Positions 32,412 to 45,117 of a stretch of 64,000 nt of DNA are shown here, in pieces. The notes below the pieces were generated by a model. That model ran no database searches and was not told the DNA's origin. It was given only the letters and a program-made list of their open reading frames with translations. Location of the stretch: assembly GCF_024700885.2 (NCBI RefSeq), contig NZ_CP117016.1; one strand, written 5' to 3'. Source of the DNA: Escherichia coli (GTDB lineage Bacteria; Pseudomonadota; Gammaproteobacteria; Enterobacterales; Enterobacteriaceae). A program made the translations under genes and the position numbers. The number at the start of each line of letters is the position of its first letter. Position 1 is the stretch's first letter.

Positions 32412-32425
32412 CCGAATGAACGAAT

Positions 32426-32452
32426 AAAGGGAGCGAAAGCTCCCTTTATTAT
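32426..32452 (+). terminator. Intrinsic terminator after lptG
   Basis: Hairpin AAAGGGAGC-gaa-AGCTCCCTTT followed by a T-rich tract. Confidence 0.55.
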
Positions 32453-35418: not shown

Positions 35419-35503
35419 GCCGAAGTGGCGAAATCGGTAGACGCAGTTGATTCAAAATCAACCGTAGAAATACGTGCCGGTTCGAGTCCGGCCTTCGGCA
35501 CCA
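35419..35503 (+). tRNA. leuX: tRNA-Leu (anticodon CAA)
   Basis: 85-nt sequence GCCGAAGTGGCGAAATCGGTAGACGCAGTTGATTCAAAATCAACC...GGTTCGAGTCCGGCCTTCGGCACCA with long variable arm and encoded CCA. Confidence 0.9.
35479..35503 (+). repeat. Island junction (attL-like): leuX 3' end, repeated at 41077-41101
   Basis: 25-bp GGTTCGAGTCCGGCCTTCGGCACCA present twice in direct orientation. Confidence 0.75.
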
Positions 35504-41287: not shown

Positions 41288-41878
41288 ATGGCATTAACAG
41301 ATATCAAAGTCAGAGCAGCCAAGCCAACGGATAAGCAATATAAGCTGACTGATGGTGGCGGTATGCATCTGCTTGTCCATCCAAATGGTTCTAAGTACTG
41401 GCGTTTGCAGTACCGTTATGAGGGAAAGCAAAAAATGCTGGCACTTGGGGTTTATCCTGAAATCACACTAGCGGATGCCAGAGTACGTCGTGACGAGGCG
41501 CGTAAGCTGCTTGCGAATGGCGTCGATCCGGGAGACAAAAAGAAAAATGATAAGGTTGAACAGAGTAAAGCACGAACCTTTAAAGAAGTCGCGATTGAGT
41601 GGCATGGCACCAATAAAAAGTGGTCTGAAGATCACGCCCATCGTGTGCTAAAAAGTCTTGAAGATAATCTTTTTGCAGCGCTTGGTGAACGTAATATCGC
41701 TGAGTTAAAAACTCGAGATTTATTAGCACCTATTGTTCCTTTAACCATCCGCAATGGCCAACGGTTTACAGAGCATAATACGAATAGCCGTAGAGCCAGC
41801 CAGTTACGGTGGTCGCGATGGTGTGTCCGCCAGAAAATCACCACGAATACCAGAATCGCGGCACTGACCAGAAAATGA
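41288..41878 (+). pseudogene. P4-type tyrosine integrase, N-terminal fragment (truncated or frameshifted after about 150 aa)
   Basis: N-terminus MALTDIKVRAAKPTDKQYKLTDGGGMHLLVHPNGSKYWRLQYRYEGKQK is typical of P4-family integrases; the catalytic domain is absent. Confidence 0.75.
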
Positions 41879-42372
41879 TAAACAGGAAACACGGGGAGGT
41901 TCACTTTGCTTTCTCCTGTAGTATTTTCTGTAGGTTCTGAACCGGTTCGAGCGGGGTTGTGAGGCTGATGGCAATCCCCGGGCTCTTCCTGCATGTTACA
42001 CTGGTACTGCAACAGGGGGCCTTCGCTCCTATGACATTACTCAGTATTTTCACTACTACACCCCATCTGCCATCCATAACAACCGATTCACCCCCTCGGG
42101 AGGCGTTGTTGCCCGTCACCCGGACAGGCATCGTTATGGACTTCTCTTGTTGCACGATCGATCAATTGTTATGCATGCTGACACCACTACCCCGGTGGGT
42201 ATGACCGATGCCTTTCTCACTCTCTTCCCGGTCATCGTCGGCCTTCCCCGTTATTGTGGCGTGTCGGCACCATCGACGGCATTTCGATGGCTGCTCAGTG
42301 TTCACTCACGTTACGGCCCGCATAACCCATTGACTTCCTGAAGAAGTCGTTTCAGGGAGAGATTCAGCCCTT

Positions 42373-43358
42373 TTGTTACCTCCTGGACCGCTTCCTGTCC
42401 TTCCAGTTGGAGCGAGAGTTAGTCGGGGCGGACTTTCACCGACGGAAAGATCGTGCATTTCAAGGCACACACAACAATATCTGCGAGCGTGCTATCCGTC
42501 CGGTCGTTATGGGACGAAAGGCCTGGTTGTTCGCTGGTTCACTGATGGCCGGGAACCGAGCGGCACAGATAATGAGCCTTCTGGAAACAGCAGTCTGGAG
42601 CCACATGCTTGGCTGACGGACGTCCTAACGCGTCTGCCCGGAGTGGCCGGAGGAGAGGTTGGCAGAGTTACTGCCTCTTGAGGGCTTTACCTTCTTTGGG
42701 TAAGTGATACCTGCCGTCAGGTGTTTGTGCACCGGGCCATAACCTGCAGTTGGGAATTGAACGCCTGACAACAGGAAATGAGCTAGAGCAGTAAACACGC
42801 GGGCTGACAATGGGTCAGAATATGAGTCTGCCCGGCGTTATTCTTGGGGTCAGTACTTCAGATCCAGCCTCCGGTACCAGACTAGCTAGCCCCTACGCAA
42901 CCAAATAAATCAACCATCGTAAGAGTGCAATCGTTCATATACACTGCCGGTGATGGGCGGAAAAATGCGTTAATGTTGAGTTCCTCGAACCCTTACCAAT
43001 TAAGGGACATAGCCAGATACGCAACTGGCTGATGCAAGCAGTCTGATGTCTTTAGATTCGCTGGCCTGCGGGCATGACAATGTCAAACAGTCAAAGATTG
43101 TGGCGTTGACGGTCAGTCTGGGTCGTAAAAACTTCCTGTTCTTCGGCTCTGACCATGGTGGTGAGCGGGGAGCGCTACTGTACAGCCTGATCGGGACGTG
43201 CAAACTGAATGACGTGGATCCAGAAAGCTACCTTCGCCATGTGCTTGGCGTCATAGCAGACTGGCCGGTCAACCGGGTCAGCGAACTGCTTCCGTGGCGT
43301 ATAGCACTGCCAGCTGAATAACACATCCCCGTCAATACGGCCCTCGCTGTACGCTTAC
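42373..43358 (+). mobile_element. IS66-family transposase remnants (two C-terminal fragments), right end at about 43358
   Basis: Fragments with GRKAWLFAGS and LGRKNFLFFGSDHGGERGALLYSLIGTCKLNDVDPESYLRHVL; terminal ...ACGCTTAC matches the IS66 right end at 57116. Confidence 0.55.
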
Positions 43359-43434
43359 GATTAGTGGTGGTGTCTTCCAGTGCGAGGAGCAGCGGATGAG
43401 CCTCACATGCCCTTGCAGTGGCGGTAAATCCGGC

Positions 43435-43815
43435 TTAGGCAATGGCTTCCGGGGACACAGACGGGTTACGTATCAGGCGGTACGCACTTTCAACCTGAGC
43501 AGTGGAGTGGGATGATTTCACAATAGAAAGACCTGCATGCTGAGCGAGAGAAGAGGCCAGTGACACAAGGCGTCGTGTACGACGCGGATCACCGAGACGG
43601 GCATGTCCAAACTGCTCGTTATCCCATGAATAACAATCAGAAAGTACCATAACAGACCCGAAGAAAATGAAATATAAGAGAAGATCAACGGGTGAAGAAA
43701 AAGTTCAAAAAATCGCTGCCGGGGAGGAAGGAAACTACCGAATGGAAAGAGTCCCCCTAAAGCAGACTGACAGACATCACAAATCCCCGGGTGGGGATTT
43801 GTGTATAAGAGACAG
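43435..43815 (-). mobile_element. IS4-family (IS50-like) element remnant: terminal inverted repeat plus transposase N-terminal fragment
   Basis: Fragment ARLGDPRRTRRLVSLASSLAQHAGLSIVKSS...AYRLIRNPSVSPEAI resembles the IS50 transposase N-terminus; end sequence CTGTCTCTTATACACAAA at 43798-43815. Confidence 0.55.
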
Positions 43816-44113
43816 CCTGATAGGGGGGCGCATACATTATGCATACATACTCTCGGATATTGTAAAAGTTTTTTATATAATTACTAAGTTAGCTACCATC
43901 AATAAAATATTGACGTTAGCAGGTAACATCAACTTAATATATAAAAATATTCTTAGGTGAAAGTAACTGTTCAAGATAAAATAAAATCATCGCTTAAAAA
44001 GAAAAACACTCTCTTTGTTATATACGTACTCTGATAAATGCCAGATAAAACTATTAATTTTCATAAAAATATAATGCCATATATTATGATGCTATACATC
44101 TTACATATTCAAT

Positions 44114-44878
44114 TCAGATATATTTTAATTTTTCCGATAGTTCTTGACACGCATCAAGAACCAAAGTTGAATAATATTCAATTTTTTCTTTAGGTATCTG
44201 AATTTCCACGCCACTAATGCTGATAGCTGCAATTACTTCACGAGTCTGATTAAATACCGGAGCAGCAATACAATAAATTCCCGGTGAATCCTCTGCGTTA
44301 TCAAAAGCCCATCCACGTTCACGAATACGTGCAAATTCCTGTATTAGATCAGATTTACGAGTGATAGTTGTTTGCGTAAATCGTGGCAACGTTTCCTCAG
44401 GCAACAATGTGTCAATGACGTCTTGAGGTAACCACGCACATAAAGCCTTACCAACTCCAGAACTATGGAGTGGCAACTTCTTGCCTACCCACGTTCTGAT
44501 GCCAATTGGTTGTGTACTCTCGAGTTTCAAAATATAGATTGGAGCGACTTCATCGAGAATGCCCAGATGGCAGATAAGATCAGTACTGTCTCTCAGTTTT
44601 TCTAGAACCGGCCTCGCTACCTTACTGATGTCAAACTGCTCCAGAGATCGATTCCCCCATTCATACAATTTCAGCCCAAGAAAAAAACGCCCTCTTTCCT
44701 GACGTAACAGATGATGTTCGACAAGGGCATTCAGTAAAGATGATGTGCTGCTTTTTGGCAGATCCAGATCCTGCTGGATCTGGCTGAAGGTGGCGCCTGG
44801 AGAGCTAAAAAGGTAATTGCAGACTCTGACAGTTTTATCGAGTGCTGGTACCGATGTTCTGATGGTTTGATTATTCAT
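44114..44878 (-). CDS. IclR-family transcriptional regulator
   Basis: N-terminal HTH region and C-terminal effector domain; start taken at MNNQTIRTSVPALDKT; divergent from the catabolic operon. Confidence 0.75.
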   Translation of the reverse strand: MNNQTIRTSVPALDKTVRVCNYLFSSPGATFSQIQQDLDLPKSSTSSLLNALVEHHLLRQERGRFFLGLKLYEWGNRSLEQFDISKVARPVLEKLRDSTDLICHLGILDEVAPIYILKLESTQPIGIRTWVGKKLPLHSSGVGKALCAWLPQDVIDTLLPEETLPRFTQTTITRKSDLIQEFARIRERGWAFDNAEDSPGIYCIAAPVFNQTREVIAAISISGVEIQIPKEKIEYYSTLVLDACQELSEKLKYI

Positions 44879-45117
44879 AAAAAAATATGATTCCTTACAA
44901 TACTGAATAGTATACCCCATTCCCCCTTGATGCGCAGCGGCGCTTAGCACACATATTATACATGGCCTCCGCGTACCGGCATGCCTCTATAAACCTGACT
45001 TATTTCACACTTTTCATATCGCATTGTAAAAACATTTGACATGCAAAACCTGAATTTGATTCACTTTATTCAGCATAAAGAACTTATGTTCCATATACAG
45101 AACTTAGTGAGAGTGAT

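What the first reader, a model, noticed from the sequence alone, without database searches (positions are those of the whole stretch)
43700..43815. IS50-like terminal repeat with adjacent perfect hairpin
The sequence CTGTCTCTTATACACAAA (minus strand, ending at 43815) closely resembles the Tn5/IS50 outside end, and the adjacent transposase fragment matches the IS50 transposase N-terminus. Next to it is a perfect inverted repeat AAATCCCC-GGGT-GGGGATTT. This is a decayed IS4-family end that may still be bound by related transposases.
Basis: partly seen in the sequence, partly recalled or inferred. Interest (0 to 1): 0.3.

Follow-up and report, generated by a model that had tools for sequence, protein, structure and literature searches.

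The report
Truncated ISEc13 end with terminator-like hairpin
This is the broken-off first 452 bases of a known E. coli jumping gene (ISEc13, a relative of IS50/Tn5); the neat hairpin beside its end is a standard part of that element and probably derives from a transcription stop signal, so the finding is real but ordinary.

Summary
Window 43364-43815 (minus strand) is the 5' 452 bp of ISEc13, an IS4-family element of the IS50 type. It is 98.2% identical to intact 1550-bp copies, and NCBI already annotates it as a pseudogene in hundreds of E. coli genomes.

- **End:** CTGTCTCTTATACACAAAT matches the IS50 outside end at 17 of 19 positions.
- **Gene fragment:** it carries the Tn5 transposase DNA-binding domain (Pfam E=1e-18). 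It has a stop at codon 72 and is cut off at about codon 96 by an ISEc8 fragment.
- **End not decayed:** the end and hairpin are identical to those of intact copies. Only the gene is broken.
- **Hairpin:** 43778-43803, an 11-bp stem. It belongs to every ISEc13 copy examined.
- **Relatives:** at least 17 related elements (Vibrio, Aeromonas, Photobacterium and others; transposase about 50-55% identical where a full gene was matched) have a stem-loop at the same position. The inner stem differs between most of them but stays complementary. There it is followed by T6-T8 and then TTGAAC, a canonical intrinsic terminator facing inward.

I infer that the hairpin shields the transposase gene from transcription reading in from outside, as described for IS200. 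In ISEc13 a roughly 68-nt insertion separates the stem from its T-run, so its present activity is uncertain.

Novelty is low.

The parts
43364..43815 (-). ISEc13 remnant: the 5' 452 bp of a 1550-bp IS4-family (IS50-type) insertion sequence
   Evidence: 98.2% identity over 453 bp to the intact ISEc13 in L002 (2515-4064). No other ISEc13 piece lies in the window. PGAP annotates the same sequence as a pseudogene, 'IS4/Tn5 family transposase DNA-binding protein'.
43797..43815 (-). Left 19-bp terminal repeat CTGTCTCTTATACACAAAT, resembling the IS50 outside end; the transposase binding site
   Evidence: 17 of 19 identical to the IS50R outside end read from L006. Identical to the ends of intact ISEc13 copies. 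Contains TTATACACA, which fits the DnaA-box consensus TTATNCACA (from my own knowledge, not tested).
43778..43803 (-). Perfect hairpin CACAAATCCCC-ACCC-GGGGATTTGTG: the stem-loop of the ancestral left-end terminator, whose T-run is interrupted in ISEc13
   Evidence: Predicted RNA energy is -18.6 kcal/mol. Present in intact copies. At least 17 relatives have a homologous stem-loop followed by T6-T8. 5 of 11 pairs show compensatory changes. The simple terminator scan does not call the ISEc13 hairpin but does call the V. owensii homologue.
43716..43765 (-). Second, imperfect stem-loop inside the ~68-nt segment specific to the E. coli lineage, ending 3 nt before a T6 run
   Evidence: It is part of the minimum-free-energy fold of the 5' UTR. 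It is not conserved in the 86%-identical EFF60 lineage, so support is weak.
43703..43714 (-). GATTTTTTGAAC: a T-run fused to TTGAAC, a possible -35 element of the transposase promoter
   Evidence: In relatives the same T-run plus TTGAAC directly follows the hairpin. No consensus promoter is called by the scan, so the promoter assignment is an inference.
43435..43650 (-). Transposase pseudogene: N-terminal DNA-binding domain, ATG at 43648-43650, premature TAA at 43435-43437 (codon 72). Homology continues to 43364.
   Evidence: Pfam PF14706 at E=1e-18. tblastn of the ISEc13 transposase aligns residues 1-96 at 95.8% identity. The stop arises from GAA to TAA.
43110..43360 (+). 3'-terminal fragment of ISEc8 (IS66 family), whose end abuts and truncates the ISEc13 remnant
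   Evidence: 99.6% identity to annotated ISEc8 copies over query positions 211-461. Pfam DDE_Tnp_IS66_C at E=1e-17.

Best explanation
Window 43364-43815 (minus strand) is a dead, one-ended remnant of ISEc13, an IS4-family insertion sequence built like IS50. It lies in a run of broken mobile-element genes downstream of tRNA-Leu(CAA). It keeps an intact left transposase-binding end, the whole 5' untranslated region and the first ~96 codons of the transposase gene. The gene has a premature stop, and an ISEc8 fragment removed the rest.

The perfect hairpin is a built-in part of ISEc13. It descends from a Rho-independent terminator placed directly inside the left end, upstream of the element's likely own promoter (TTGAAC, then a GATC 16 nt further on in ISEc13). 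RNA polymerase reading in from neighbouring genes would stop there before it could express the transposase. In ISEc13 the stem is perfect and extended, but a roughly 68-nt insertion has separated it from its T-run. It may therefore act only as a weak terminator or pause site, perhaps helped by a second stem-loop that now precedes the T-run.

**Shown:** the identity of the element, the truncation, and conservation and covariation of the stem-loop.

**Inferred:** termination, insulation and the promoter assignment.

**Confidence by part:** about 0.97 that this is an ISEc13 remnant; about 0.65 that the hairpin is terminator-derived and serves, or served, to insulate the transposase gene.
For: **Identity**
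- 98.2% DNA identity to an intact copy that PGAP names ISEc13, which has a 9-bp target duplication.
- The intact transposase matches the solved Tn5 transposase over its full length, E=5e-83. It has the Tnp_DNA_bind and DDE_Tnp_1 domains above Pfam's cut-offs, and a Tn5 dimerisation domain match just below its cut-off (24.2 against 26.7 bits).
- The left end is 17 of 19 identical to the IS50 outside end, and the intact right end is 19 of 19 identical to the IS50 inside end.

**Decay of the gene**
- Internal stop and truncation; the ISEc8 junction.

**Hairpin**
- Identical in intact copies.
- In at least 17 distinct relatives from about ten genera, repeat positions 16-19 (AAAT) start a stem of 10-16 bp. 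The inner pairs differ between most of them but stay complementary. The stem is followed by T6-T8 and, in most of them, TTGAAC.
- RNAalifold finds 11 consensus pairs, 5 of them with compensatory changes.
- The terminator scan calls the V. owensii homologue on the inward strand only.
- A soil-metagenome relative (L019) has ATTTTTTTGAACCTTTTCCCCATCCGTTGATC directly after its hairpin. This closely matches ISEc13's GATTTTTTGAACTTTTTCCTCACCCGTTGATC, which lies about 65 nt further in. That points to an insertion in the E. coli lineage.

**Precedent**
Against: - The ISEc13 hairpin itself fails a simple terminator definition. After the stem come TTTGTGATG rather than a T-run.
- No termination data exist for any member of this group.
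- No consensus sigma-70 promoter is detected downstream, so the order terminator-then-promoter is inferred from a TTGAAC motif alone.
- Some relatives do without this hairpin: IS50 itself, the Parashewanella-type elements, and Photorhabdus L110/L114 at 54-55% identity.
- The covariation alignment comes from MAFFT on short sequences, and some of those sequences are closely related.
Confidence: 0.65

Rival explanations
1. In ISEc13, and so in this remnant, the hairpin is a functionless relic. The ancestral terminator lost its T-run through the ~68-nt insertion, and the stem persists only because the element is young and its copies are nearly identical.
For: The hairpin is not called as a terminator. 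E. coli copies are 95-100% identical, so conservation among them says little.
Against: The 86%-identical EFF60 lineage keeps a stem with a different inner pair and loop (CCCCG-AGTC-CGGGG) together with a T6 run. In ISEc13 the stem has lengthened to 11 perfect pairs rather than eroded.
Confidence: 0.2
2. The palindrome is a double-stranded DNA binding site for a dimeric protein, either a host factor or a second subterminal transposase site, that regulates assembly of the transposition complex.
For: It overlaps positions 13-19 of the transposase binding site. The outer half, AAATCCC/GGGATTT, is strongly conserved in sequence.
Against: The inner stem sequence, stem length and loop length vary freely among relatives while complementarity is kept. 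The constant T-run lies on one side only. Both point to RNA structure rather than sequence-specific recognition of a DNA palindrome.
Confidence: 0.07
3. The hairpin acts within the transposase mRNA, as a 5' stabiliser or translational control element, rather than as a terminator.
For: The 5' UTR folds more stably than shuffled sequence, z=-3.2. IS10, IS50 and IS200 use mRNA structure to block translation (from my own knowledge; PMC4513863).
Against: The stem begins 13 nt from the element tip, so a transcript containing it must start outside the element. It lies 128 nt upstream of the ATG, and the predicted fold does not pair it with the ribosome-binding region.
Confidence: 0.05
4. The sequence is Nextera/Tn5 mosaic-end adaptor contamination or an assembly artefact.
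For: The first 16 nt equal the start of the Tn5 mosaic end as I recall it. Adaptor-like strings do turn up at contig ends of some metagenome bins.
Against: The same 501 bp, with both flanks, is present at 100% identity in many independently finished E. coli chromosomes, and it runs straight on into ISEc13 sequence.
Confidence: 0.01

Closest known systems
ISEc13 (IS4 family, IS50-type; name as used by NCBI PGAP)
   Same: 98.2% nucleotide identity over the 452 bp. The terminal repeat, hairpin and 5' UTR are identical.
   Different: Only the first 29% of the element is present. The transposase has a premature stop and is cut off by ISEc8. There is no right end and no detectable target duplication.
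IS50 / Tn5
   Same: Same architecture: an outside-end-like repeat at the 5' side of the gene, an inside-end-like repeat overlapping the stop codon, and a 9-bp duplication. The ends are 17/19 and 19/19 identical. The transposases are homologous over their full length.
   Different: The transposases are only about 39% identical. IS50 has no GC-rich stem plus T-run next to its outside end. The ISEc13 5' UTR is 165 nt; the IS50 UTR is 92 nt in L006.
IS200 left-end terminator (nt 12-34), which protects against impinging transcription
   Same: A stem-loop beginning about 12-16 nt from the left tip, upstream of the transposase transcription start, with the proposed role of stopping read-in transcription (PMC4513863).
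   Different: IS200 belongs to an unrelated family with a different type of transposase. Its terminator is described as bidirectional, whereas the homologues here look unidirectional. No experiment exists for the ISEc13 group.
IS10 / IS50 protection from read-through by mRNA secondary structure
   Same: Same purpose: keeping outside transcription from expressing the transposase (from my own knowledge).
   Different: Those systems block translation by sequestering the start region. Here the structure lies far from the start codon and, in relatives, has the form of a transcription terminator.

Membership tests
ISEc13 (same insertion sequence) | At least 95% nucleotide identity to the reference element (ISfinder convention, from my own knowledge) | tested here: met
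   98.2% over 453 bp to a full-length copy that PGAP names ISEc13. The ISfinder reference itself was not available.
IS4 family, IS50 type | Transposase with the Tn5-type N-terminal DNA-binding domain | tested here: met
   PF14706 at E=1e-18 on the fragment. 57% identity to residues 12-74 of the IS50R transposase.
IS4 family, IS50 type | DDE catalytic domain and Tn5-type dimerisation domain | tested here: not met
   Both are absent from the window because the gene is truncated at about codon 96. The intact cognate has DDE_Tnp_1 above Pfam's cut-off and a Dimer_Tnp_Tn5 match just below it, 24.2 against 26.7 bits. The window therefore holds a remnant, not a functional member.
IS4 family, IS50 type | Terminal repeats of about 19 bp starting CTG and resembling the IS50 ends | tested here: met
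   The left end matches the IS50 outside end at 17 of 19. The right end is missing from the window; in intact copies it matches the IS50 inside end at 19 of 19.
IS4 family, IS50 type | 9-bp target site duplication | not testable with these tools
   The right end has been lost in the window. Intact relatives have 9-bp duplications: L002, L004 and L005.
Rho-independent (intrinsic) terminator | GC-rich stem-loop | tested here: met
   11-bp perfect stem including four consecutive G-C pairs, -18.6 kcal/mol.
Rho-independent (intrinsic) terminator | A run of T/U immediately after the stem | tested here: not met
   In ISEc13 and the window the tail is ATGTCTGT, and the scan gives no call. The feature is met in the relatives, which have T6-T8. 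The ISEc13 hairpin is therefore filed as terminator-derived, not as a canonical terminator.
Rho-independent (intrinsic) terminator | Transcripts actually end there | not testable with these tools
   This needs Term-seq or an in vitro transcription assay.

The most novel reading that the evidence does not exclude
Two readings remain open.

1. The ISEc13 clade of IS50-type elements carries a previously undescribed, structurally conserved inward-facing terminator fused to the inner edge of the transposase binding site, with repeat positions 16-19 doubling as the base of the stem.
2. Its ends are nearly identical to the IS50 outside and inside ends (17/19 and 19/19) although the transposases are only about 39% identical. 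Chromosomal ISEc13 ends and remnants such as this one could therefore be recognised by Tn5 transposase, and Tn5 ends by the ISEc13 enzyme.
Probability: 0.35. Interest if true: 0.3.

Novelty: already known. Interest (0 to 1): 0.12.

Why it matters
The practical value is in annotation. This is an ISEc13 pseudogene fragment in a run of broken mobile-element genes downstream of tRNA-Leu(CAA), not a new element.

The comparative result is a small addition to insertion-sequence biology. One branch of the IS50-type elements appears to shield its transposase gene from outside transcription with a terminator fused to its outside end. That strategy is documented for IS200 but, as far as I found, not for this group.

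The near-identity of the ISEc13 ends to the Tn5 ends may matter to people using Tn5 tools in E. coli strains that carry ISEc13.

Tried and rejected
- **Rfam:** a permissive scan of 43300-44150 found nothing.
- **Promoter and terminator scans:** nothing on the window or on intact ISEc13. The promoter assignment (TTGAAC plus GATC) therefore stays an inference.
- **Rest of ISEc13 in the window:** searched with tblastn and blastn; none found.
- **Literature:** 'ISEc13' gave only survey papers that list the name. The IS4-family review PMC2266710 does not mention terminators or stem-loops.
- **Adaptor contamination:** considered and rejected.
- **Second hairpin as replacement terminator:** the stem-loop before the T6 run (43716-43765) is not conserved in the EFF60 lineage, so I keep it only as a possibility.
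- **Genome pattern scan:** It is therefore not a census.
- **Solo 35-bp palindrome between trmL and lldD:** looked at briefly for a target duplication. None was clear, and I did not pursue it.

Full report
**Observation.** Read on the minus strand from 43815, the window gives CTGTCTCTTATACACAAATCCCCACCCGGGGATTTGTGATG....
- The 19-mer CTGTCTCTTATACACAAAT occurs once in the window at up to three mismatches, against 0.02 expected.
- IS50R read from plasmid locus L006 has CTGACTCTTATACACAAGT at its outside end. The match is therefore 17 of 19, a tool-derived figure rather than a remembered one.
It has 11 perfect pairs, CACAAATCCCC/GGGGATTTGTG, with a 4-nt loop at 43778-43803, and overlaps positions 13-19 of the terminal repeat.
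- Perfect hairpins of this size occur at four places in the window. Markov-random sequences averaged 0.25 hits each.
- The minus-strand ORF 43438-43650 matches the Tn5 transposase DNA-binding domain, PF14706, at E=1e-18. It is 57% identical to residues 12-74 of the IS50R transposase.

**What it is.** The window is E. coli chromosome. A 501-bp query spanning the feature is 100% identical in many finished genomes. There PGAP annotates it as a pseudogene: 'IS4/Tn5 family transposase DNA-binding protein; internal stop; missing C-terminus'.
- Lower-identity hits lead to full-length copies annotated 'IS4-like element ISEc13 family transposase'.
- One such copy (L002 2515-4064) is 1550 bp long and is flanked by a 9-bp duplication, CTCTCTTCG. 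Its 457-aa transposase gene starts 165 nt from the left tip.
- The window matches positions 1-452 of this copy at 98.2% identity and holds no other piece of it.
- The first ~85 bp, covering repeat and hairpin, are identical to intact copies. A GAA-to-TAA change creates a stop at codon 72.
- Homology ends at 43364. Three bases further on, at 43360, lies the end of a 250-bp 3' fragment of ISEc8 (IS66 family, 99.6% identity), which evidently truncated the element.
- The surroundings are a run of broken mobile-element genes downstream of tRNA-Leu(CAA) at 35419-35503. They include fragments of an integrase with phage-integrase domains and IS66-family fragments.

**Relation to IS50.**
- The intact ISEc13 transposase aligns over its full length with solved Tn5 transposase structures, E=5e-83.
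- It carries Tnp_DNA_bind and DDE_Tnp_1 above Pfam's cut-offs, and a Tn5 dimerisation domain match just below its cut-off.
- It is only about 39% identical to IS50R.
- Its right end, CTGTCTCTTGATCAGATCT, is identical to the IS50 inside end at 19 of 19 positions and overlaps the stop codon as in IS50.

**The hairpin.** It is present unchanged in intact ISEc13 copies from a chromosome and from plasmid pMAR2, so it belongs to the element.
- Many pattern hits are chance matches with no transposase nearby, and a few are adaptor-like contig ends.
- At least 17 distinct elements have a stem-loop at the same position. They come from Vibrio, Salinivibrio, Photobacterium, Aeromonas, Aliagarivorans, Alishewanella, Rheinheimera and Photorhabdus, plus a soil metagenome bin and a second E. 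coli lineage. Their transposases are about 50-55% identical to ISEc13 where a full gene was matched.
- In these elements, repeat positions 16-19 (AAAT) open a stem AAATCCC(C) plus 2-6 variable pairs. The loop is 3-7 nt and the exact complement follows.
- The stem is followed by six to eight T, and in most of them directly by TTGAAC.
- Predicted energies are -14 to -24 kcal/mol.
- The inner stem differs between most lineages while pairing is kept. On 13 sequences RNAalifold finds 11 consensus pairs, 5 of them with compensatory double changes.
- The terminator scan calls the V. owensii homologue on the inward-reading strand only.

This anatomy is that of a Rho-independent terminator facing transcription that enters from outside. 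It sits just upstream of what is probably the element's own promoter.

**ISEc13's own version.**
- The stem is extended, but after it come TTTGTGATG rather than a T-run. The scan does not call it.
- The motif GATTTTTTGAACTTTTTC(C/T)TCACCCGTTGATC lies about 65 nt further in. In relative L019 a very similar motif directly follows the hairpin.
- The simplest reading is an insertion of about 68 nt between stem and T-run in the E. coli lineage.
- The 86%-identical EFF60 lineage still has CCCCG-AGTC-CGGGG plus T6 before its own inserted segment.
- The inserted segment in ISEc13 folds into a second, imperfect stem-loop ending 3 nt before the T6 run. That structure is not conserved in EFF60.

Whether the ISEc13 hairpin still terminates is therefore open.

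**Mechanism and precedent.** The best-supported model is insulation of the transposase gene from impinging transcription. The same function is described for the IS200 left-end terminator at nt 12-34 (PMC4513863). From my own knowledge, it parallels the translational blocks on read-through transcripts in IS10 and IS50. The IS4-family review does not mention such a structure, and papers naming ISEc13 only list it. In the window, the IclR-family regulator gene (44114-44950, minus strand) points toward the remnant. Any residual terminator activity would act on that gene's transcripts; this is speculation.

**Rivals.**
- **Functionless relic in ISEc13:** possible.
- **DNA-binding palindrome:** disfavoured by the free variation of the inner stem and loop, and by the one-sided T-run.
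- **mRNA element:** disfavoured because the stem starts 13 nt from the tip and 128 nt upstream of the ATG.
- **Adaptor contamination:** refuted.

**Can it still be bound or moved?** The 19-bp site is intact, so binding by an ISEc13 transposase is plausible but untested.
- Copies covering at least 80% of ISEc13 occur in 874 of 5426 complete E. coli genomes.
- In 20 of the 25 best-matching chromosomes the remnant is the only ISEc13-like place.
- Transposition needs two ends, and only one is present here.

**Verdict.** The object is a known, already annotated insertion-sequence remnant. The one modest addition is that the hairpin descends from a conserved left-end terminator in the ISEc13 branch of IS50-type elements. 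Interest is low.

Noticed in passing
L002 4032-4062 (intact ISEc13 right end; not in the window): The right end carries a perfect 13-bp palindrome, GTCTCTTGATCAG-gagat-CTGATCAAGAGAC, spanning the transposase stop codon. In effect it is an inward-facing partial copy of the end. Its 9-bp core is kept in Vibrio, Salinivibrio, Alishewanella and Photobacterium relatives, with one compensatory change in V. owensii. It is absent from IS50 and from the Photorhabdus relatives.
   Followed up: partly
L129 399-433 (E. coli WP5-W18-ESBL-11, between trmL and lldD): A solo 35-bp perfect palindrome, CTGTCTCTTGATCAG-GAGAT-CTGATCAAGAGACAG, made of two inside-end-like termini back to back. It is present with its flanks in about 799 of 5426 complete E. 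coli genomes. K-12 has about 80 bp of different repeat-rich sequence there, and no clean target duplication is visible. It differs from the ISEc13 right end only by CT instead of AA at one tip.
   Followed up: partly
L007 1424-1780 (E. coli EFF60, next to espY1): A remnant of a second ISEc13-like lineage, 86% identical. Its end is CTGCCTCTTGTACATAAAT, and its hairpin CCCCG-AGTC-CGGGG is followed by T6.
   Followed up: partly
L128 401-450 (E. coli Ec-U5): A solo 50-bp ISEc13 left end (repeat plus hairpin) cut off by an IS3-family element. This is another example of one-ended remnants.
   Followed up: no
L037, L069, L104, L109 (contig ends of metagenome bins): Strings such as CTGTCTCTTATACACAAATCCGAGCCCACGAGAC look like Nextera adaptor sequence with errors left in public assemblies (the adaptor identity rests on my own knowledge).
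   Followed up: no
window 35419-35503 and 41288-43360: tRNA-Leu(CAA) is followed some kilobases downstream by an integrase fragment with phage-integrase domains (41288-41878), a phosphoethanolamine transferase fragment and IS66/ISEc8 fragments. Together they look like a degraded genomic island.
   Followed up: partly
window 14395-14421, 15017-15050, 32423-32450: Three other perfect hairpins with stems of 12-13 bp and short loops. They were not examined and may be terminators.
   Followed up: no
window 43667-43960 (+): A 97-aa ORF on the opposite strand runs across the boundary between ISEc13 and its flank, covering the hairpin and terminal repeat. PGAP does not annotate it at this locus, and it is probably spurious.
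   Followed up: no
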